Below are positions 4,132 through 32,000 of a DNA stretch of 32,000 bases, one piece after another. The DNA is from Halorhodospira halophila SL1. GTDB taxonomy: Bacteria; Pseudomonadota; Gammaproteobacteria; Nitrococcales; Halorhodospiraceae. The stretch is taken from positions 1,620,001 through 1,652,000 of the forward strand of contig NC_008789.1 of NCBI RefSeq assembly GCF_000015585.1, given 5' to 3'. Below the pieces are notes generated by a model. It made no database searches and was not told the DNA's origin. It saw only the letters and a list, made by a program, of their open reading frames with translations. Made by a program: the position numbers and the translations under genes. Each line of letters opens with the position of its first letter. Position 1 is the first letter of the stretch.

Positions 4132-4284
4132 GCTCCAAACAGCCAGAAAGGCGCGCGGCGCGCCCTTTGCTAAACCTAGCAGGCGCTCGCACGGTCCACA
4201 GCAAGTGTTATGCTCTTAACGGTTATGGTCGAATGGTCATCAGATCCATCACCACCTAGTCGCACTCACCTGGAGCCGGCACGG

Positions 4285-5094
4285 ATGACCCGACATCCCC
4301 GTTCTCTCACATGTTGGCTACTGGGGCTCGGCGCTCTACTCCTGATCGCGAAATCTACAGCGACCTCGGCGTTTGCCAAGGATGACCTAGCTGACACGAT
4401 CGAATCGATCACACCTTCCGTAGTGGGGGTTGGCACCCATGCCCCGACGCGCAATCCCCGCGTTGATTTCCGGGGGACCGGCTTTGTCATCGCAGACGGC
4501 AATGCAGTGCTGACCAACCAACACGTCCTCCCCGAGACCCTGGATGAAGAGCGCCGGGAAAGCCTGATCGTTCTGGTCGGTGAGCCGGGGTCGCCCGATA
4601 TACGCACCGCAGAGCCCGTGGCCCGTTCCAGGGCCCACGATCTGGCCATCCTGCGCATCGAAGGCGATCCACTCCCGGCTCTGAACATCGGCGACCCGAA
4701 CGACTTGCGCCCCGGCAACCAGGTGGCCTACACCGGCTTCCCGATTGGCATGGTGATCGGTTTCTATCCGGTGACGCACACCGCGATCATCTCTGCGCGC
4801 ACCCCCTTGGCATTGCCGGCACAACGAGACGATCAACTGGACCCCGGACAGGTGGCGCGGCTTCGCCGGGAAGAGCCGCCGATGGTGTTCCAGCTCGACG
4901 GCACCGCCTATCCGGGCAACAGCGGCAGCCCGGTTTACGACATCAGCACCGGACAGGTCTATGCCGTGCTAAACAAGGTATTTGTTCAGGGTGGGCGTGA
5001 AGCGGCCGTGCGCGAACCGAGTGGTATCAGCTACGCGATTCCACTCGATCTAGCCGAGTCGCTGGTCGAAGAGTACGAGCACGAATTCCGTTAA
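4285..5094 (+). CDS. secreted trypsin-like (S1/DegP-type, no PDZ) serine protease
   Basis: The ATG at 4285 is preceded by GGAG and followed by a signal-peptide-like 'MTRHPRSLTCWLLGLGALLLIAKSTATSAFA'. Catalytic-triad context is present: 'LTNQHVL' (His), 'AHDLAILRI' (Asp) and 'GNSGSPVYD' (Ser). The track's longer start (4210) adds a non-signal-like extension. Confidence 0.75.
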   Translation: MTRHPRSLTCWLLGLGALLLIAKSTATSAFAKDDLADTIESITPSVVGVGTHAPTRNPRVDFRGTGFVIADGNAVLTNQHVLPETLDEERRESLIVLVGEPGSPDIRTAEPVARSRAHDLAILRIEGDPLPALNIGDPNDLRPGNQVAYTGFPIGMVIGFYPVTHTAIISARTPLALPAQRDDQLDPGQVARLRREEPPMVFQLDGTAYPGNSGSPVYDISTGQVYAVLNKVFVQGGREAAVREPSGISYAIPLDLAESLVEEYEHEFR

Positions 5095-9848: not shown

Positions 9849-9988
9849 TCCCCTGCCACTTCCCCCGCTCGAACCTCCACTACACTTGACTGGTGACGGT
9901 CCAGTATCGCAGCCACTGGCCAGCGTTTAGGTCGATATTCAGATCCGGTGGGATTTTTTCGAAAGGCGCGAGCCGCGGAGGTTGGCAA

Positions 9989-11521
9989 GTGGGTTTAGAG
10001 CAACTCTATCAGCACATTATCCAGCAGCTGCGCGCCTCCTGGCGGCGCCGGTGGTGGCTGATCCCGGTCGCGTGGGCGGTCTGCCTGGTCGGCTGGGCTT
10101 ACATCAACACCTTACCCGATGTCTATCAGTCTTCAAGCCGCGTCTACGTAAACTCTCAGACCGTGCTCGAACCCCTGTTACGCGGTATGACCGTCCGTCC
10201 GGACACAGAGCAGCGCGTCCGCATGATGACTGTAACCCTTCTCAGCAACGACAACCTCAGGGAGATCGCTCGCCAAGCGGATCTCGATGTCCTGCTCAAC
10301 CAGGATAATGAACAAGCGTTGATCGGCACCTTGCGCGGCGGCATTCAATTGGACGGTGGCCGGCGCGATAACATCTACACCATCGCCTTTTCCCACCGGG
10401 ATCCCGAGGTCGCCTATCGGGTCGTCCGCGAGACCTCCAATCTGTTCATGGAGCGCGGCCTTGGCGACTCGCGGGTTGATCTCGCCTCCTCGCAGACGTT
10501 CATCGAGCGACAGCTCCAACGTTACGCCAGTCAGCTGCAGAACAAGGAGGCTGAGCTTGAATCCTTCAAGCGTGAGAACCATTCGCTGCTCAGCGCTGGC
10601 GGCAACTATTACACCCGGCTGGAGCGCGCTCGCGACGCCCTTGAGCAGGCACAGCTCGAGCGGGACGAACACGCCCAACGTTTAGAAACTCTGCAGGCCA
10701 GGCTCGAAAAAGACAGACAATCCCCCATTGCCGAGGACGCGCATTTGAGTAACCCCCGGCTGGACCAACGGATCAGCCGGCTGGAATCCCAGCTCGATGA
10801 GATGCGGCGCCACTTCACGGATGCCCACCCGGACGTCGCCCAAACTCGACGCATCCTCAAGGAGCTTGAGGAGCGGCGCCGTGAAGAAACCCGCATGGCT
10901 CTCGCAGATCCCGCTCGGTCCGTCGAGGGCGTTGTCGGCAGCCCGCTCCGGTTGGCATTGGTTGACGCAGAAAGCCATGCTGCTTCGCTGGAAACCCGCG
11001 TTCAAGAGCATAAGCGGCGCGTGGAGAACATCGCCGCGCTTGTCGATCAGGTTCCTGCCATCGAATCCCGATTCAATGCCTTAAAGCGCGACCACGAGGT
11101 GCTGCAGCAAAGCTATCGCCAACTGCTGACCACCCGCGAGCGGGCCGCCATGACCGGGTCCGTCGAGACCGAGACGGCTGCCGTCGATTTCCGGGTCCTG
11201 GAGCCGCCGACACGGCCGAGTTCGCCGTCCGCACCCGATCGCCCCCTGCTTGCGAGCGGTGTCCTCCTGCTAGGCCTCGGCGCCGGCTCCGGACTGGCCT
11301 ACCTGCTCGCTCAGTTGCGCGGCACCGTCACCTCCACCGCACGCCTGGCGGAGATCACCCGTCGCCCCGTACTGGGCTCGGTCACCCGGGTCCCGACCCC
11401 GAACCGGCGGCGGCGTCAACGGCTCGAGCTCATGATCTTTGCAGGGATCCTCGGAACCCTCTTTGTGGCCTATCTGATGGTGTTGGCGTACTACGGCGGC
11501 GGGGGGTTGTGGCCGTTCTAG
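9989..11521 (+). CDS. PEP-CTERM-locus-type polysaccharide chain-length determinant (EpsF/Wzz-like PCP), orphan paralog without adjacent kinase
   Basis: Collinear over its full length with the EpsF at 28674-30218: shared 'LRA(S/T)WRRRWW..P.AW.VC..GWAYI..LPD.Y..SS.VYV', 'GMTVRPD.EQR', 'NLREIARQADLD', 'DPEVAYRVVR', 'LFMERGLGD', 'HPDVA.T.R.L', 'VDFRVL.PP', plus a C-terminal RRRR+TM. The start is placed at the GTG at 9989, which has GGAGG 7 nt upstream and aligns with the paralog's N-terminus. The track start at 9893 adds 32 unaligned residues. Confidence 0.8.
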   Translation: MGLEQLYQHIIQQLRASWRRRWWLIPVAWAVCLVGWAYINTLPDVYQSSSRVYVNSQTVLEPLLRGMTVRPDTEQRVRMMTVTLLSNDNLREIARQADLDVLLNQDNEQALIGTLRGGIQLDGGRRDNIYTIAFSHRDPEVAYRVVRETSNLFMERGLGDSRVDLASSQTFIERQLQRYASQLQNKEAELESFKRENHSLLSAGGNYYTRLERARDALEQAQLERDEHAQRLETLQARLEKDRQSPIAEDAHLSNPRLDQRISRLESQLDEMRRHFTDAHPDVAQTRRILKELEERRREETRMALADPARSVEGVVGSPLRLALVDAESHAASLETRVQEHKRRVENIAALVDQVPAIESRFNALKRDHEVLQQSYRQLLTTRERAAMTGSVETETAAVDFRVLEPPTRPSSPSAPDRPLLASGVLLLGLGAGSGLAYLLAQLRGTVTSTARLAEITRRPVLGSVTRVPTPNRRRRQRLELMIFAGILGTLFVAYLMVLAYYGGGGLWPF

Positions 11522-27685: not shown

Positions 27686-28658
27686 CCGCTTCCTTGGCGG
27701 CGCTGCTCCGGGGCTCCCCACCGTATTTACCGTAACCGTAACCGTAGCCGTAGCCGTAACCGCTGTATCCCAGCCCTCCATGACCGGTCGCTTTGTTGAG
27801 CATGGTCAGCACCACGTCGCACCCCTCCAGCAGCTCCGCGGCCCGCATCACCGCCGTTTGCGCCGTACCCTCAGCCTCGATCACGAGGAGCACCTGCCCC
27901 ATCTCCCGGGCCAGCACACTCGGTTCACTGGTCGAGAGCAGCGGGGGGGAATCGAAGAGGATCACCCGATCCGGGTAGCGCTCGTGGATCTCCTCCAGCA
28001 GATCGGTCATACCCTGACTGGCCAGTAACTCCGTCGAACGACCGTGGGGACGTCCGGCTGGCAACACACTGAGATCAGGGATATCGGTGCGCAGGAGCAC
28101 GTCCGGCAGACGAAGATCAGAGTCGGTCAACAGGTCCATGAGCCCCCTGTCGGCCGCGAATCCAAGTGTTCGCGGGACGCTCGGACGTGCCACGTCGGCA
28201 TCGACGACCAGAACCGTGCGATCCACCTCCATGGCGATGCTCAGCGCGAGGTTGATCGTGGAGAAGGTCTTACCCTCCCCGGGGACGGCACTGGTCACCA
28301 TGATCAACCGCCCTTTATCCACTACCGGCATGCCATGGCGCCCGAAGGCGTTATCGAGCAGCGGGCGCTTCATCAAGCGGAACTCCTCTTCAAGCCCGCT
28401 GCGCGCCTCTCCTGGAACCTGGATCCCCTGATGGCGCAACCACCCGTAATCAATCCGGACGTCGGCCGGTCGTTCGACGGTGCGCGGCGCGCGTCCGAAC
28501 TGCGGCGTGGAGGGCCTGGCCTGCGCATATTCCGTCTGGGTCGTCTCGCCCGCCGGATCGGCCTCCTGTTGTCCGGCCCCCTGGACCGAACCTTGCGCTT
28601 GTGCACCGGGTGCCTGGTTGCCTCGGCGCTTCTCCAGCGCCCGCTCGATAATGCTCAT
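27660..28658 (-). CDS. epsG: chain-length-determinant BY-type protein tyrosine kinase (EpsG type)
   Basis: Walker A 'SAVPGEGKTFSTINLA', Walker A' 'VLVVDADV' and Walker B 'VILFDSPP' are present. The C-terminal tyrosine cluster is 'GYSGYGYGYGYGYGKYGG'. The gene sits 15 nt downstream of epsF. Confidence 0.85.
   Translation of the reverse strand: MSIIERALEKRRGNQAPGAQAQGSVQGAGQQEADPAGETTQTEYAQARPSTPQFGRAPRTVERPADVRIDYGWLRHQGIQVPGEARSGLEEEFRLMKRPLLDNAFGRHGMPVVDKGRLIMVTSAVPGEGKTFSTINLALSIAMEVDRTVLVVDADVARPSVPRTLGFAADRGLMDLLTDSDLRLPDVLLRTDIPDLSVLPAGRPHGRSTELLASQGMTDLLEEIHERYPDRVILFDSPPLLSTSEPSVLAREMGQVLLVIEAEGTAQTAVMRAAELLEGCDVVLTMLNKATGHGGLGYSGYGYGYGYGYGKYGGEPRSSAAKEADGRVAEGS
27723..27766 (-). repeat. 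imperfect hexanucleotide (GGY-TAC)n tract encoding the BY-kinase C-terminal Tyr cluster
   Basis: The plus strand reads gtaacc gtaacc gtagcc gtagcc gtaacc (27732-27761), flanked by two more Tyr codons. That gives seven Tyr within 15 residues. Confidence 0.9.
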
Positions 28659-28673: not shown

Positions 28674-30218
28674 CTAGGCAAAAAAGACCCCAACCACCAC
28701 CCCATAGGCAACCAACAAGGCTCCGGTTGCGCTGAAGAAGACGAGCATCTCCATGCGCCTGCGGCGCCGGTGGGCCGGCGTTCGCACCCGCGAGATCTGC
28801 CCCATGACGGGCCGCCCGGTGAGCTCGCCGAGCTGGCCGGGCGCGGCCACCGTGCCGCGAATCTGGGCCAGCAGGAAGGCGAATCCCGTGCCGGCCCCCA
28901 GCCCCAGGACCAGAACCGCGCTGCCCAGCAGGGGGCGGTTCGGCGCTGCCGCCTCACTTGGCTGCTCCGGTGGCTGCAGGACGCGAAAGTCCACCGAGTC
29001 CGCGCCTGACTCCACTTCGCCGGTCAGCACAGCCTGCTCAAGCCGATCCCGTAACTCAGAGTAGCTGTTCTGCAGGACTTCGTAGTCCCGTGTGAGCCGA
29101 CTGTATTCCGACTCGATCTCCGGCACGTCGTCGGAGACCGCCTCAAGTTCCTGGACCCGCAGGCGCTGCTCCTCAACCCGAGTCTCCAGCGAGGCCACAC
29201 GGCTTTCCGATTCGGCCAACTCCAGCTGCAGCGGATGATCGGGCTGACCTAGACCAACGCGATCTACCGGGGAGGCCATCAGGCTCTCGCTGAACTCCAC
29301 CGCCTGCTCCTCCCGCTCCTCGCGCAGATCCTCAAGGACGCGCTGCGTATGCGCCACGTCCGGATGCTGATCGGTATACTGGCGGCGCAGCTCATCAAGC
29401 TCGGATTCCAGGTTACTGATGCGAGCGTCTAGCTCCGGATTCTCGAACTCCGGAGGCTGCACTAATCCGGGGTGATCGCCATCGCCCTCAAGCTGTGCGA
29501 TGAGGCTCTCATAATGGCTTTGAGCCTGCTCAAACTCCAACTCCGCCTCAGCTAACCGCTCACGCTCGGCCCGCAAGCGGCTATAAAAATCGCCGCCGGC
29601 CAACAGAACCTCCGAGTGCTCACGGCGAAAATCCTCAAGCTGCTCTTCCTTCGCCCGCAGCCGAGTGCCGTAACGGTCGAGCTGATTCTCGATAAAATCG
29701 CGCGAGGCCGTCAGATCCGTCCGCGGGTCACCGAGGCCCCGCTCCATGAAGAGGTCACCGGTCTGACGCACCACGCGATAGGCCACCTCCGGGTCCTCAT
29801 CGGAAAAACTGATCGTATAGATATTGTCCCCAGCCCCACTTTCGTCACCCCCGCGCAGATCGATGTCCTGCAGGCTATCGACGGCGCGGTCGATGTCGTC
29901 GTAGCCGAGGAGAATGTCGAGGTCCGCCTGCCGCGCGATCTCACGCAGGTTATCCCGGCTCAGCAGCGTGCTGGTAATCATGTTCATCCGCTGCTCAGCG
30001 TCCGGTCGCACCGTCATGCCGCCGAGCAGTGGACCGAGCACCGAATCCGTATCGACGTAGACCTCGCTCGACGCCTCGTAGGTGTCGGGGAGGGCGTGGA
30101 TGTACGCCCACCCGGGTATACAGACCAGCCAAGCGATGGGAAGGATCCACCACCGTCGACGCCAGGTCGCTCGCAGTTGGTGCAGCACTTCCTGGACGAC
30201 CTGCTCCATCTGCCCCAT
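28674..30218 (-). CDS. epsF: PEP-CTERM-locus polysaccharide chain-length determinant (EpsF type, PCP partner of EpsG)
   Basis: 514 aa, with the ATG preceded by GGGGAG at 9 nt. It has an N-terminal TM helix after 'LRATWRRRWW', a long periplasmic coiled-coil region, a second TM helix 'LLGSAVLVLGLGAGTGFAFLLA', a short cytoplasmic basic segment 'RVRTPAHRRRRR' and a terminal TM helix. The kinase gene follows immediately. Confidence 0.85.
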   Translation of the reverse strand: MGQMEQVVQEVLHQLRATWRRRWWILPIAWLVCIPGWAYIHALPDTYEASSEVYVDTDSVLGPLLGGMTVRPDAEQRMNMITSTLLSRDNLREIARQADLDILLGYDDIDRAVDSLQDIDLRGGDESGAGDNIYTISFSDEDPEVAYRVVRQTGDLFMERGLGDPRTDLTASRDFIENQLDRYGTRLRAKEEQLEDFRREHSEVLLAGGDFYSRLRAERERLAEAELEFEQAQSHYESLIAQLEGDGDHPGLVQPPEFENPELDARISNLESELDELRRQYTDQHPDVAHTQRVLEDLREEREEQAVEFSESLMASPVDRVGLGQPDHPLQLELAESESRVASLETRVEEQRLRVQELEAVSDDVPEIESEYSRLTRDYEVLQNSYSELRDRLEQAVLTGEVESGADSVDFRVLQPPEQPSEAAAPNRPLLGSAVLVLGLGAGTGFAFLLAQIRGTVAAPGQLGELTGRPVMGQISRVRTPAHRRRRRMEMLVFFSATGALLVAYGVVVGVFFA

Positions 30219-30426
30219 GGGTATCTGACTCCCCCAGCTTTCGTGCCGGAACCACTCTGGGGCAAGGCTAGCAGTGTCCTACGAGTCCGCAAGTTCGGTT
30301 CGTAACCCTTTACAAAACCAGGACAACACCCGGTGTCAGCGTTATTGACGCAAGCTTTGCACGGAAAACGCGAGGCTTTGCCGGGACACTTGCACACAGG
30401 GGCTGAAGGGGATGACGACGACCGCT

Positions 30427-30442
30427 TGGCACGGCACATGCA
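30427..30442 (+). promoter_or_regulatory. candidate sigma-54 (RpoN) -24/-12 promoter upstream of the PilZ gene
   Basis: TGGCACGgcacATGCA compared with the consensus TGGCACG-N4-TTGCW. The -24 element matches 7/7 and the -12 element 4/5. The invariant GG (30428-29) and GC (30440-41) have exactly the canonical 12-nt offset. The site is intergenic, about 110 nt upstream of the GTG at 30550. Confidence 0.5.
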
Positions 30443-30500
30443 GACCGGCCCCCGGCAATAGGCATTCGTAAGATCGCCGTTGCCCTGGACGCATAACCAC

Positions 30501-30544
30501 GAACATCCATGAACCTCGGAGAACATCCACGACCCTCGGAGAAC
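30501..30544 (+). repeat. 20-nt tandem direct repeat (2.2 copies) in the PilZ gene leader
   Basis: gaacatccatgaacctcgga (30501-30520) and gaacatccacgaccctcgga (30521-30540) are 18/20 identical and are followed by gaac. Each copy ends in an SD-like GGAG. The second GGAG lies 9 nt upstream of the GTG start. Confidence 0.85.
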
Positions 30545-30549
30545 TTAAC

Positions 30550-31119
30550 GTGAACGCCCTCGACCTGGCAGAGGAGTTGGCCGATTTCTGGCTCCCGGTA
30601 CTGGCGAAGCGCTCCTGGGAGGTGCGTGCCGACATGCTGGAGCAGATCCTTGGGCAGTTGGCGGACGACACCCCCGACCCCATGCTCTACCGCCGCCTGG
30701 TCGCGTTTTTCCTGGCGACCGCGATCGATCGCCTTGCGGCCGATGAGCCGGTCGCCAGCCAGGCGCAGGCACGGATCTACATCCAGTCGGCCGATCCGAA
30801 GCACCGCGCAATGGCCCTGGAACGCTTCCCCGAGGTCCACTCACGCCCTGCGTGGCGCGGCCACCCCCGTAACAACCCCCTGGACCGACGGGCCGCCCCG
30901 CGACACCGCCTAACCGCCGAAGCAGGCATCGAAGCCGCCCGTACCAAGATCACGTGTCGGATCCACAATATCTCAAAGTCCGGAGCCCTAATTACCCTAC
31001 ATTTAATGCTTCAACCAAGCGATGAGGTTCACCTGACGCTGCGATCTCGCGACCAGCCGATAAACGGTCAGGTGGCGCGGGTTTCCGATCATGGCTGTGG
31101 CATCCTGTTCTGCGCATAA
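30550..31119 (+). CDS. PilZ-domain (c-di-GMP-binding) protein with unrecognised helical N-terminal domain
   Basis: 189 aa, starting at the first canonical start codon (GTG) after an in-frame stop at 30469-30471. The C-terminal ~90 aa carry both PilZ signature motifs with typical spacing: RxxxR ('RAAPR') and (D/N)xSxxG ('NISKSG'). A beta-barrel-like 'VHLTLR...INGQVARV...GCGILF' follows. Confidence 0.65.
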   Translation: MNALDLAEELADFWLPVLAKRSWEVRADMLEQILGQLADDTPDPMLYRRLVAFFLATAIDRLAADEPVASQAQARIYIQSADPKHRAMALERFPEVHSRPAWRGHPRNNPLDRRAAPRHRLTAEAGIEAARTKITCRIHNISKSGALITLHLMLQPSDEVHLTLRSRDQPINGQVARVSDHGCGILFCA

Positions 31120-31308
31120 AGGAGACCTCGCGAGAACACCGGCCATCGCTCCGAGACTCGTCGCGAGCGCGAGTCCTTTACCCCACCGATAATATCGTTT
31201 TTACCTTAAATGACCCACCACGCTGCCGTGACGATGCTGTAGCATATTCATCGGTCCGATTCACGTTCAACCCCAAACGTCATGAGGATGAGGACAATTG
31301 GAGTTCGC

Positions 31309-32000
31309 GATGTCATCCCCCTACTCCCGCTACAAGGTCATCCTGGCGACCGAAGATCAGGCGCGGTGCGCCCATTTCCAGTTACGATACATGGTTTATT
31401 GCGAAAAGAAGCAATATGAATCTTCAAGCCTTTTCCCGGATGGATATGAACGTGACGACCACGACAGTCACGCGCTCCACCTGCTTCTAAAATACACACC
31501 ACCGGGATCCCAGACGAATCGAAACGTGGGCACGATTCGTCTAATAAAAGGCGGAAACAAACCTCTTCCGATCGAGAACATCTCCGACCTGAACAGCAAT
31601 GAATTCACGAATGAATATAGTGGCGAGCTCTCGCGACTCGCTATCCATGAAGTGCCTTCAGGCCACGACACCCTCCCGCTGTTTATCCTCTGCCGTGCTG
31701 CACAGCACCACGCCAGGGGGTGTGGGATATCACGGCTATACTTCCTCGCTCGACCGGCGCTGGCCCGACATCTAACCCGTAACCATTTACCCTTCGAGCA
31801 GGCTGGTTCGCCTTGCTATCACCGCGGCCGCCGCATACCGTACGCGATGGACGTAAATGGCTTTGCTCGGGGGTTAGCGCGGTGGGAAAAGAAACTCATA
31901 AAACAGAAATTAGCCCCATCAAGTAAAACTGAAACCCTCCACGCCTACCAACATCCTAATAGACTTTCTGACATGGTTCCGAACGGCTGCCTGCAGACGA
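31309..32000 (+). CDS. PEP-CTERM/exosortase-system-associated acyltransferase (GNAT-like, related to LuxI / N-acyl amino acid synthases); 3' end outside the window
   Basis: This ORF is not in the supplied track because it has no stop in the window. I translated it by hand: the ATG at 31309 has GGAG 6 nt upstream, and the frame stays open for 230 codons to nt 32000. 'YKVILATEDQARCAHFQLRYMVYCEKKQYES...DGYERDDHDSHALHLLLKY...NVGTIRLI...PLPIE' and 'GELSRLAIHE' match my recollection of the conserved N-terminal pattern of this family. Confidence 0.65.

What the first reader, a model, noticed from the sequence alone, without database searches (positions are those of the whole stretch)
30219..30549. 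Divergent control region: strong sigma-54 promoter match, candidate UAS, 20-nt tandem repeat and a coupled uORF
The 331-nt gap between epsF (-) and the PilZ gene (+) contains several features.
1. TGGCACGgcacATGCA at 30427-30442 has canonical GG/GC spacing for a sigma-54 -24/-12 promoter, oriented toward the PilZ gene.
2. About 90 nt upstream lies a small dyad, TGTCA-N7-TGACG (30334-30350). Two further 'CTT(T)GCAC' near-copies of the -24 core sit at about 30355 and about 30388. These are plausible enhancer-binding-protein sites.
3. A 20-nt direct repeat (30501-30544) is present, each copy ending in GGAG.
4. A 14-codon uORF (ATG at 30509, MNLGEHPRPSENLT) has its TGA (30551-30553) overlapping the PilZ GTG start (30550-30552).

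XrtA loci are typically controlled by PrsR, a sigma-54 activator in the PrsK/PrsR pair, so this promoter may tie the PilZ gene into that regulon. I found no convincing promoter for the eps operon itself in this gap.
Basis: partly seen in the sequence, partly recalled or inferred. Interest (0 to 1): 0.65.

Follow-up and report, generated by a model that had tools for sequence, protein, structure and literature searches.

The report
PrsR-box sigma-54 promoter before PilZ gene
The gap holds a conserved sigma-54 promoter with the enhancer site known from PEP-CTERM genes, here placed in front of a cyclic-di-GMP receptor (PilZ) gene, while the 20-nt repeat and small upstream ORF are a recent species-specific duplication with no sign of function.

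Summary
All four reported features are in the sequence at the stated coordinates. The window is Halorhodospira halophila.

TGGCACGGCACATGCA (30427-30442, +) is a real, conserved sigma-54 promoter. The "small dyad" TGTCAGCGTTATTGACG (30334-30350) is this species' version of the 17-nt "motif 1" of Haft et al. 2006, the predicted PrsR enhancer site that ends in TTTACA.

The module has the form box, then 73-76 nt, then GG-N10-GC. It precedes the orthologous PilZ gene in 13 loci: Halorhodospira, Alkalispirillum, Thioalkalivibrio and six metagenome contigs. The same box and promoter precede three PEP-CTERM genes of H. halophila itself, two of them with the same unusual ATGCA -12 element. prsK-prsR and prsT lie 9-15 kb away on the same contig.

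The 20-nt repeat is a duplication seen only in H. halophila; the nearest relatives have one copy. The uORF's ATG is a substitution in the derived copy, it has no Shine-Dalgarno sequence, and comparable uORFs occur only sporadically. The 5' UTR shows no significant RNA fold and no Rfam match. No promoter for the eps strand was found.

Verdict: a new member of a known cis-regulatory class.

The parts
30334..30350 (+). PrsR-box-type upstream activating sequence (Haft 'motif 1'), TGTCAGCGTTATTGACG. It is a degenerate version: the 3' hexamer is TTGACG instead of TTTACA.
   Evidence: Positionally orthologous 17-mers YGTCRG-N5-TTTACA lie 73-76 nt upstream of the -24 element in 13 PilZ loci. It ranks 1 of 63,960 window positions with a leave-clade-out matrix. 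The architecture is as described in PMC1569441.
30427..30442 (+). Sigma-54 promoter, -24 TGGCAC / -12 ATGCA.
   Evidence: It is the only hit with <=1 mismatch in the window. GG-N10-GC is conserved at the same place in 12 other loci. Two PEP-CTERM genes of the same genome carry TGGCACGCCCGATGCA.
30452..30454 (+). Predicted transcription start (inferred, not mapped).
   Evidence: Rule of thumb: about 11-13 nt downstream of the -12 GC at 30440-41.
30453..30549 (+). Predicted 5' UTR of the PilZ mRNA (about 97 nt).
   Evidence: No significant fold (z -0.02). No Rfam match. About 30 nt longer than in other genera, plus the 20-nt duplication.
30502..30541 (+). 20-nt tandem duplication. Copy 1 (30502-30521) is derived; copy 2 (30522-30541) is ancestral-like.
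   Evidence: TRF score 74. L006 and L044 have a single copy that resembles copy 2.
30538..30541 (+). Shine-Dalgarno GGAG of the PilZ gene, 8 nt before the GTG.
   Evidence: Sequence. Purine-rich SD at the same place in the orthologues.
30509..30553 (+). 14-codon uORF, not conserved and probably fortuitous.
   Evidence: Its ATG is a C-to-T change in duplicated copy 1, and it has no SD. An ATG uORF ending at the NTGA of the start occurs in 3 of 12 loci, at different positions.
30550..31119 (+). PilZ-domain protein gene: a novel helical N-terminal domain plus a C-terminal PilZ domain with RRxxPR and NxSxxG motifs.
   Evidence: Pfam PF07238. Conserved N-terminus MNxxELAEELADFW fixes the start. [quoted passage not shown]
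30219..30293 (-). Highly conserved leader upstream of the eps (XrtA) operon start. No recognisable promoter.
   Evidence: About 90% identical in L006 and L044, against much lower identity in the rest of the gap. Fold not significant (z -0.36). No sigma-70 or sigma-54 match on this strand.
28674..30218 (-). XrtA-system chain-length determinant, first gene of the divergent EPS operon.
   Evidence: TIGR03007, 431.6 bits.
30355..30397 (+). CTTTGCACGG (30355-64) and CTTGCACAC (30389-97): -24-like near-copies of unexplained meaning.
   Evidence: They lack GG. The first is lost in L044. GCACAC lies 28-29 nt before the -24 T in five Halorhodospira promoters, which is weak evidence.

Best explanation
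The gap carries an enhancer-dependent promoter of the PEP-CTERM regulatory class.

Proposed mechanism (all steps inferred):
1. The response regulator PrsR, a sigma-54 activator phosphorylated by PrsK, binds the 17-bp box at 30334-30350.
2. The DNA loops over the 76-bp spacer.
3. PrsR uses ATP to open the RNA polymerase-sigma-54 complex bound at 30427-30442.
4. Transcription starts near 30453 and runs into the PilZ gene. It probably continues into the two exosortase-associated N-acyl amino acid synthase genes and the ThiF-like gene downstream.

The PrsK signal would therefore decide whether the cell makes this c-di-GMP receptor. The 20-nt repeat is a recent slippage-type duplication of the Shine-Dalgarno region, and the uORF is a by-product of it.

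Shown here: the sequence elements, their conservation and spacing, their sharing with PEP-CTERM genes, and the presence of prsK, prsR and prsT.

Inferred: PrsR binding, RpoN dependence, the start site, and co-transcription with the synthase genes.
For: 1. Conservation of the module. Box, 73-76 nt, then GG-N10-GC, then 51-59 nt to the start codon (86-108 nt in the H. halophila clade). This holds in 13 loci from at least 3 genera plus 6 metagenome contigs with different neighbours. In the 12 distinct promoters G2, G3, C4 and T13, G14, C15 never vary while other positions do.

2. Match to the published description. PMC1569441 describes a 17-nt motif 1 ending in TTTACA, a spacer of mean 62.8 nt (range 32-92), a sigma-54 motif 2, and then about 71 nt to the start codon. 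It also reports that the motif's phylogenetic profile equals that of PrsR, PrsK and PrsT.

3. Independent rediscovery. A matrix built only from PilZ-upstream sites, combined with a sigma-54 match, finds real PEP-CTERM genes in Massilia, Pseudoduganella and Aquisalimonas. It also finds three in H. halophila itself, two with TGGCACGCCCGATGCA.

4. Regulators present. prsK-prsR (P0207, named 'PEP-CTERM-box response regulator' by NCBI) and prsT (TIGR02917, 232 bits on the half-length protein held) are on the same contig, 14.5 and 8.7 kb beyond the PilZ gene. In L054 the PilZ homologue lies next to prsR (TIGR02915, 731 bits).

5. Experimental precedent. A PEP-CTERM gene with this promoter type was shown to be RpoN-dependent in Aquincola, with a mapped start site (PMC9850573).

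6. Possible operon. No terminator hairpin was found in the 178-nt PilZ-to-synthase gap. The box and promoter are retained in the H. neutriphila type, where the PilZ ORF has decayed.
Against: - The window's own box is degenerate where the motif is most informative: TTGACG against TTTACA. A matrix made only from six PEP-CTERM-gene sites ranks it 10th of 63,960, and that score is not significant against shuffles of the gap (502/2000).
- The -12 element has A where the consensus has T.
- No IHF-like site lies in the spacer, unlike several relatives.
- In the papers read, PrsR binding to motif 1 is a prediction. I found no binding experiment.
- rpoN itself was not looked for in this genome.
- Halorhodospira lineages L042 and L043 lack both the PilZ gene and the module yet keep the synthase genes. 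Control of those genes by this promoter is therefore not obligatory.
Confidence: 0.85

Rival explanations
1. The tandem 20-mer and the overlapping uORF form a translational control device. Translation of the uORF would be coupled to the PilZ GTG, or the extra GGAG would act as a standby or decoy ribosome site.
For: The uORF stop TGA overlaps the GTG, and each repeat copy ends in GGAG. ATG uORFs ending at the same NTGA also occur in L044 and L046.
Against: - The duplication is absent from the nearest relatives L006 and L044.
- The ATG arises from a substitution in the derived copy.
- There is no SD before the uORF.
- The TGA is a by-product of the conserved second codon (AAC/AAT/AG.), so any open upstream reading frame in that phase ends there.
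- uORFs are absent from 7 of 12 loci. Where present they differ in position, start codon and peptide.
- There is no significant RNA structure.
Confidence: 0.08
2. The 17-bp site is bound by a regulator other than PrsR, or it serves the divergent eps operon rather than, or in addition to, the PilZ gene.
For: The site is an imperfect T-N11-A dyad 116-132 nt from the eps start codon. The eps operon has no recognisable promoter of its own in the gap. L006 and L044 carry an eps-directed sigma-54-like TGGT(G/A)CAC(A/C)CTTTGCT.
Against: - The module travels with the PilZ gene in metagenome contigs that have no eps operon next to it.
- The spacing to the PilZ-side promoter is fixed at 73-76 nt, while the distance to the eps gene varies.
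- The same box precedes single PEP-CTERM genes.
- The eps-directed site is absent from the window.
Confidence: 0.12
3. The sigma-54 match is a chance occurrence in GC-rich DNA, and the PilZ gene is transcribed from an unrecognised sigma-70 promoter.
For: One hit with <=1 mismatch per 32 kb is expected by chance (0.93).
Against: The match is conserved in position, orientation and GG/GC spacing in 12 other loci at 32-60% protein identity. No sigma-70-like site is present.
Confidence: 0.03
4. The two GGA-containing repeat copies, one overlapping the SD, are a CsrA/RsmA-type dual binding site created by the duplication.
For: Two GGA motifs lie 20 nt apart, the second inside the SD. This arrangement is typical of CsrA targets; that statement rests on my own knowledge and was not tested here.
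Against: The context CUCGGAG lacks the usual A-N-GGA. Neither GGA sits in a predicted hairpin loop. Relatives have only the SD copy. The presence of csrA in this genome was not checked.
Confidence: 0.05

Closest known systems
PEP-CTERM cis-regulatory region of Proteobacteria: motif 1 (predicted PrsR site) plus the sigma-54 motif 2 (Haft et al. 2006, PMC1569441)
   Same: - A 17-nt upstream motif of the TTTACA type.
- Spacer within the published 32-92 nt range.
- A -24 GG / -12 GC promoter.
- A non-coding location with about 100 nt to the start codon.
- A genome that encodes PrsK, PrsR and PrsT.
- Identical promoter flavour at PEP-CTERM genes of the same genome.
   Different: - The gene served is a cytoplasmic PilZ c-di-GMP receptor, not a PEP-CTERM protein. 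[quoted passage not shown]
- The spacer is fixed at 73-76 nt. It is 61-63 nt at PEP-CTERM genes of other genera and 96-97 nt at those of H. halophila.
- The box in H. halophila ends in TTGACG.
RpoN1-dependent pepA promoter of Aquincola tertiaricarbonis (PMC9850573)
   Same: A sigma-54 -24/-12 promoter with the predicted enhancer upstream, in a bacterium with PrsK/PrsR/PrsT and an XrtA-type EPS system.
   Different: That promoter was tested experimentally (RpoN dependence, mapped start site) and it drives a PEP-CTERM gene. Here nothing has been tested experimentally.
NAS-PilZ fusion proteins Nas343 and Nas354 (PMC4897644), and the link between N-acyl amino acid synthases and PEP-CTERM/exosortase loci (Craig et al. 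2011, cited there)
   Same: A PilZ domain is associated with exosortase-type N-acyl amino acid synthases. Here the PilZ gene sits directly upstream of two TIGR03694 genes.
   Different: Here the PilZ is a separate protein with its own helical N-terminal domain. The association is by gene order and a shared promoter (inferred), not by fusion.
Stand-alone and enzyme-linked PilZ receptors (VCA0042/PlzD, PA0012, BcsA, Alg44, MapZ)
   Same: The C-terminal beta-barrel matches them (Foldseek E 4e-5 to 1e-3), and the RRxxPR and NxSxxG motifs are present.
   Different: The N-terminal five-helix domain (residues 1-95) has no PDB match. The family is small: 56 representatives among 1.84 billion proteins.

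Membership tests
PrsR-box / sigma-54 regulatory region of PEP-CTERM systems (Haft 2006) | 17-nt motif 1 whose 3' end is TTTACA | tested here: inconclusive
   The window has TGTCAGCGTTATTGACG, matching 4 of 6 in the hexamer. Positionally orthologous sites in 9 loci outside the H. halophila clade end in TTTACA, and the H. neutriphila-type site (L034/L045) ends in CTTACA. A leave-clade-out matrix ranks the site 1 of 63,960. A matrix from PEP-CTERM genes alone is not significant. The published logo itself could not be read because figures are not held.
PrsR-box / sigma-54 regulatory region of PEP-CTERM systems (Haft 2006) | Spacer of 32-92 nt (mean 62.8) between motif 1 and motif 2 | tested here: met
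   76 nt in the window and 73-76 nt in all 13 PilZ loci.
PrsR-box / sigma-54 regulatory region of PEP-CTERM systems (Haft 2006) | Motif 2 with -24 GG / -12 GC at canonical spacing | tested here: met
   TGGCACGGCACATGCA, one mismatch to TGGCAC-N5-TTGCW.
PrsR-box / sigma-54 regulatory region of PEP-CTERM systems (Haft 2006) | Genome encodes PrsR (TIGR02915), PrsK (TIGR02916) and PrsT (TIGR02917) | tested here: met
   PrsT: TIGR02917 hit, 231.9 bits on the C-terminal half. PrsR: P0207, named by NCBI and 71% identical to a TIGR02915-positive query, on the same contig. The adjacent 688-aa GAF/HATPase kinase is taken to be PrsK; it was not scanned against TIGR02916.
PrsR-box / sigma-54 regulatory region of PEP-CTERM systems (Haft 2006) | Downstream gene encodes a PEP-CTERM protein | tested here: not met
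   The gene encodes a PilZ protein with no signal peptide or PEP-CTERM tail. The 2006 paper allows a few non-PEP-CTERM targets, so this is an atypical member rather than an exclusion.
Sigma-54-dependent promoters in general | Transcription depends on RpoN and an ATPase activator, with the start about 12 nt after the GC | not testable with these tools
   Needs 5'-RACE and rpoN or prsR mutants.
Regulatory uORF / translational coupling | A uORF conserved in relatives and able to initiate (SD plus start codon) | tested here: not met
   Absent in L006. Sporadic and non-homologous elsewhere. No SD.
Structured RNA leader or riboswitch (for example c-di-GMP-I/II) | Match to a known RNA family, or a fold better than shuffles | tested here: not met
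   No Rfam hit at gathering threshold or at E<=1. z = -0.02 and +0.67.
PilZ c-di-GMP receptors | PilZ fold with RxxxR and (D/N)xSxxG motifs | tested here: met
   PF07238, E 2.5e-9. R114, R118, S142 and G145 are invariant in 22 family members. Foldseek matches to c-di-GMP-bound PilZ structures. Ligand binding itself was not tested.

The most novel reading that the evidence does not exclude
The PrsK/PrsR two-component system does more than switch on PEP-CTERM surface proteins. In Ectothiorhodospiraceae and their soda-lake relatives it also controls synthesis of a dedicated c-di-GMP receptor: a PilZ domain joined to a previously undescribed helical domain. That receptor would gate the neighbouring exosortase-associated N-acyl amino acid synthases, or the XrtA EPS machinery, after translation. 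Output would then need both the PrsK signal and high c-di-GMP, a two-input AND gate. The separate-gene arrangement here and the NAS-PilZ fusions seen elsewhere would be two forms of the same partnership.
Probability: 0.3. Interest if true: 0.6.

Novelty: new member of a known kind. Interest (0 to 1): 0.4.

Why it matters
The PEP-CTERM/exosortase system is widespread in environmental and floc-forming bacteria, but its regulation is known mainly from a 2006 prediction and a few mutant studies.

This result shows that the predicted PrsR box and sigma-54 promoter are conserved in front of a c-di-GMP receptor gene in several genera. That adds a non-PEP-CTERM member to the regulon. It also gives a concrete, testable link between two-component signalling, c-di-GMP and the enigmatic exosortase-linked N-acyl amino acid synthases.

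It further supplies a set of aligned natural box variants, including the degenerate TTGACG form, that would help define the PrsR recognition sequence. The result is an extension of a known scheme, not a new kind of element.

Tried and rejected
- **Word-index search with the PilZ protein.** It found nothing. Relatives were reached instead through the neighbouring Wzz gene and a metagenome scan.
- **Rfam.** No hit, on the whole window at gathering threshold or on the gap at E<=1.
- **RNA folding.** Folds of the PilZ 5' UTR and of the eps leader are no better than shuffles. Three sequences give no usable covariation.
- **Sigma-70 and terminator scan.** None found in 29900-31400. A relaxed sigma-70 scan of the gap and a sigma-54 (GG-N10-GC) scan of 30219-30700, both on both strands, gave no eps-strand promoter.
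- **IHF-like site in the spacer.** Present in several relatives, absent in the H. halophila clade.
- **The 2-mismatch pseudo-site TGACGCAAGCTTTGCA (30346-61).** Rejected because it lacks GG and overlaps the box.
- **MAFFT alignment of the H. neutriphila-type gap to the H. halophila-type gap.** Unreliable. I anchored on the promoter instead.
- **Box-like hits in Duganella and Pseudoduganella (L013, L019, L029).** In L029, the one checked, the hit lies inside a PEP-CTERM coding region; rejected as false positives.
- **A box matrix from six PEP-CTERM genes only.** It did not score the window's site significantly.
- **Helical phasing of the three spacer classes (about 62, 75 and 97 nt).** Considered but not claimed. 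The steps are 12 and 22 nt, and the published spread is wide.
- **Papers.** No supplementary files of Haft 2006 are held as text, and Craig et al. 2011 is not held.

Full report
**Where we are**

The window is Halorhodospira halophila. It is 100% identical to contig NRRO01000007 of GCA_016583685.1, and its Wzz protein also occurs on a 2.68-Mb chromosome named H. halophila.

Positions 11.5-30.2 kb hold a minus-strand XrtA/PEP-CTERM exopolysaccharide operon. From the 30.2-kb end it reads: chain-length determinant TIGR03007, BY-kinase TIGR03018, outer-membrane protein TIGR03016, ATPase TIGR03015, deacetylase, FemAB, glycosyltransferases, XrtA-EpsI and amidotransferase.

The 331-nt gap 30219-30549 separates its first gene from a plus-strand PilZ gene (30550-31119; PF07238, E 2.5e-9). 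Just beyond the window come two exosortase-associated acyltransferases (TIGR03694), a ThiF-like protein, an MMPL transporter, a PEP-CTERM protein, PrsT, two more PEP-CTERM proteins and prsR-prsK.

**Observation**

The start codon GTG at 30550 is confirmed by the conserved N-terminus MNxx(E/D)LAEELADFW in all orthologues.

**The sigma-54 promoter is real**

TGGCACGGCACATGCA is the only match with <=1 mismatch to TGGCAC-N5-TTGCW in the window. One such match is expected by chance in 32 kb (0.93), so the case rests on comparison with other genomes.

I collected the orthologous region from these sources:
- two Halorhodospira MAGs (L006, L044);
- H. neutriphila and a close metagenomic relative (L034, L045);
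- Alkalispirillum mobile (L046);
- Thioalkalivibrio sp. ALJ1 (L047);
- seven soda-lake metagenome contigs carrying a PilZ homologue (L049-L055).

All but L049 have a GG-N10-GC site with a (T/A)TGCW -12 element on the PilZ strand. It lies 51-59 nt before the start codon, or 86-108 nt in the H. halophila clade. In the 12 distinct promoter sequences G2, G3, C4, T13, G14 and C15 never vary, while the other positions drift. The A at the first position of the -12 element is a local habit: two PEP-CTERM genes of H. halophila itself carry TGGCACGCCCGATGCA.

**The 'small dyad' is the PrsR box**

With the loci anchored on the promoter, a 17-mer stands out 73-76 nt upstream of the -24 T in every case:
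- window: TGTCAGCGTTATTGACG
- L006 and L044: TGTCAGTTTTATTAACG
- Alkalispirillum: TGTCAGGCGAATTTACA
- Thioalkalivibrio: TGTCGGCTTTGTTTACA
- metagenome contigs: CGTCGGATGCTTTTACA, CGTCAGATTTCTTTACA, TGTCGGAGATATTTACA, TGTCGAAATTTTTTACA, TGTCAGCGACCTTTACA and CGTCGGATTTCTTTACA
- H. neutriphila type: CGTCGCCGTGGCTTACA

Haft et al. 2006 described exactly this upstream of 99 of 167 proteobacterial PEP-CTERM genes. Their description has a 17-nt motif 1 whose 3' end is TTTACA, a spacer of mean 62.8 nt (32-92), a 17-nt sigma-54 motif 2, and about 71 nt to the start codon. The motif's phylogenetic profile pointed them to PrsR, PrsK and PrsT (PMC1569441).

Two tests connect my sites to theirs.
1. A matrix built only from PilZ-upstream sites, combined with a sigma-54 match, picks out genuine PEP-CTERM genes in unrelated loci: Massilia L009 and L025, Pseudoduganella rivuli L022, and Aquisalimonas L048, with spacers of 61-63 nt.
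2. The same search finds three PEP-CTERM genes in H. halophila itself, with spacers of 96-97 nt.

In the window the box is unique. A matrix that excludes the whole H. halophila clade still ranks it first of 63,960 positions, and only 4 of 2000 shuffles of the gap reach its score.

One caveat applies. The H. halophila box ends in TTGACG rather than TTTACA, and a small matrix built from six PEP-CTERM-gene sites alone does not score it significantly. Its identity therefore rests on positional orthology, not on motif score alone.

**The regulators are there**

- PrsT (TIGR02917) lies 8.7 kb beyond the PilZ gene.
- prsK-prsR lie 14.5 kb beyond it, on the same contig, in an operon with a polysaccharide export gene and a sugar transferase.
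- In metagenome contig L054 the PilZ homologue sits tail-to-tail with a bona fide prsR (TIGR02915, 731 bits against a cut-off of 503).
- In the other metagenome contigs the neighbours differ (sugar dehydrogenase, glycosyltransferase, methyltransferase), yet the box-promoter module stays with the PilZ gene.

The module therefore belongs to the PilZ gene, not to the eps operon.

Experimental precedent for the class comes from Aquincola. There a PEP-CTERM gene with such a promoter is RpoN1-dependent, its start site was mapped, and the predicted enhancer is noted upstream (PMC9850573). In the papers I read, PrsR binding to motif 1 remains a prediction.

**The repeat and the uORF**

The closest relatives have one copy of the 20-mer: L006 ...GGCCATCCACGACCTTGGGAGGATACAACGTG and L044 ...GGCCGTCCACGGCCTTGGGAGGATACAACGTG. 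Copy 2 in the window (AACATCCACGACCCTCGGAG) resembles that single copy. Copy 1 differs from copy 2 by two substitutions, and one of them creates the uORF's ATG.

The uORF has no Shine-Dalgarno sequence. Its 'coupled' stop is simply the TGA formed by the start codon plus the conserved second codon. ORFs ending at that TGA appear in 5 of 12 loci (3 of them with ATG), at different positions and with unrelated peptides. L006 has none of 8 or more codons.

The predicted 97-nt UTR folds no better than shuffles (z -0.02; L006 z +0.67) and matches no Rfam family. It remains possible, but is unsupported, that the extra GGAG has a local effect on translation.

**Other elements**

- The two CTT(T)GCAC near-copies lack the GG that sigma-54 needs, and the first is not kept in L044. 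The hexamer GCACAC does sit 28-29 nt before the -24 T in the window, L006, L044 and one H. halophila PEP-CTERM promoter, with GCACGC at the same place in its paralogue. That amounts to about two independent observations, so I leave it unexplained.
- No sigma-70-like or sigma-54-like promoter faces the eps operon in the window.
- The 75 nt next to the eps start are about 90% identical in L006 and L044 and must matter, but I could not assign them a function.

**What the promoter drives**

The PilZ protein has a confident model (pLDDT 90). It shows five N-terminal helices, a flexible linker carrying RRxxPR, and a PilZ barrel with NxSxxG. [quoted passage not shown] The family is small, with 56 representatives at E<=1e-3 among 1.84 billion proteins.

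The gene is followed, after 178 nt with no terminator hairpin, by two N-acyl amino acid synthase genes. Natural fusions of such a synthase to a PilZ domain have been reported, as has the link between these synthases and exosortase loci (PMC4897644 and its reference to Craig et al. 2011).

In the H. neutriphila type the PilZ ORF has decayed, but the box and a perfect TGGCACAGAACTTGCT remain ahead of the synthase genes. This suggests that the promoter also serves those genes. In L042 and L043, both the PilZ gene and the module are gone.

**Verdict**

This is a genuine, conserved PrsR-box/sigma-54 promoter of a class published in 2006, found here in front of an unusual target. The repeat and the uORF are evolutionary noise until shown otherwise.

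Novelty: a new member of a known kind. Interest is moderate: the result extends the PrsKR regulon to a c-di-GMP receptor and makes that link testable.

Noticed in passing
window 27729-27762: The hexanucleotide repeat ACCGTA x5.7 found by TRF encodes, on the minus strand, the C-terminal (YG)n tyrosine cluster of the XrtA-associated BY-kinase (...GYSGYGYGYGYGYGKYGG). It overlaps the 5' end of the long ORF call for the next gene.
   Followed up: partly
L006 4618-4633 (+) and L044 406-421 (+): In the two Halorhodospira MAGs a sigma-54-like site TGGT(G/A)CAC(A/C)CTTTGCT points toward the eps operon, back-to-back with the PilZ promoter. It lies inside a palindrome TTGGCACAC...GTGTGCACCAA. There is no counterpart in the window.
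   Followed up: partly
L006 4737-4940 and 2575-3867: An IS-remnant insertion of about 200 nt lies in the intergenic gap (its ORF has an HTH-like TTPQLREKIRKSPLSERALA). An ISL3-like transposase gene lies right after the PilZ gene. The locus is a target for mobile elements in that MAG.
   Followed up: no
window 30219-30293 (minus strand): The 75 nt upstream of the eps start codon are about 90% identical in L006 and L044, far more than the rest of the gap. A possible stem pairs GCCCCAG with the SD region CUGGGGGAG. The fold is not significant, and no promoter is recognisable.
   Followed up: partly
L058 11402-12397, 12899-13930; L056 18261-19187 (same contig, 8-13 kb beyond the PilZ gene): Three paralogous PEP-CTERM protein genes of H. 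halophila each carry a PrsR box and a sigma-54 promoter with an unusually long 96-97-nt spacer, above the published maximum of 92.
   Followed up: yes
window 30392-30397; L006, L044, L058 promoters: GCACAC (GCACGC in one case) lies 28-29 nt upstream of the -24 T in five Halorhodospira PrsR-type promoters. This could be chance or a second protein site.
   Followed up: partly
window 4156-4171 (+): Sigma-54-like CGGCGCGCCCTTTGCT (2 mismatches) lies in the 78-nt gap before a trypsin-like protease gene (4210-5094). No PrsR box is nearby.
   Followed up: no
window 9893-11521 (+): A second XrtA-type chain-length determinant paralogue (TIGR03007, 468 bits; 53% identical to the first) lies on the opposite strand. 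It is preceded by a 214-aa membrane protein gene.
   Followed up: no
L042 3362-4000, L043 1-465, L034/L045: The PilZ gene is evolutionarily labile within Halorhodospira. It is deleted, together with the module, in two genomes, and it has decayed to a 74-codon remnant, with the module kept, in the H. neutriphila type.
   Followed up: yes
L046, L052, L053, L054 spacers; L009, L022, L048: IHF-like sites (WATCAANNNNTTR, <=1 mismatch) lie at fixed positions, 7 nt or 18-19 nt before the -24 T, in many PrsR-type promoters of other genera. None is found in the H. halophila clade.
   Followed up: partly
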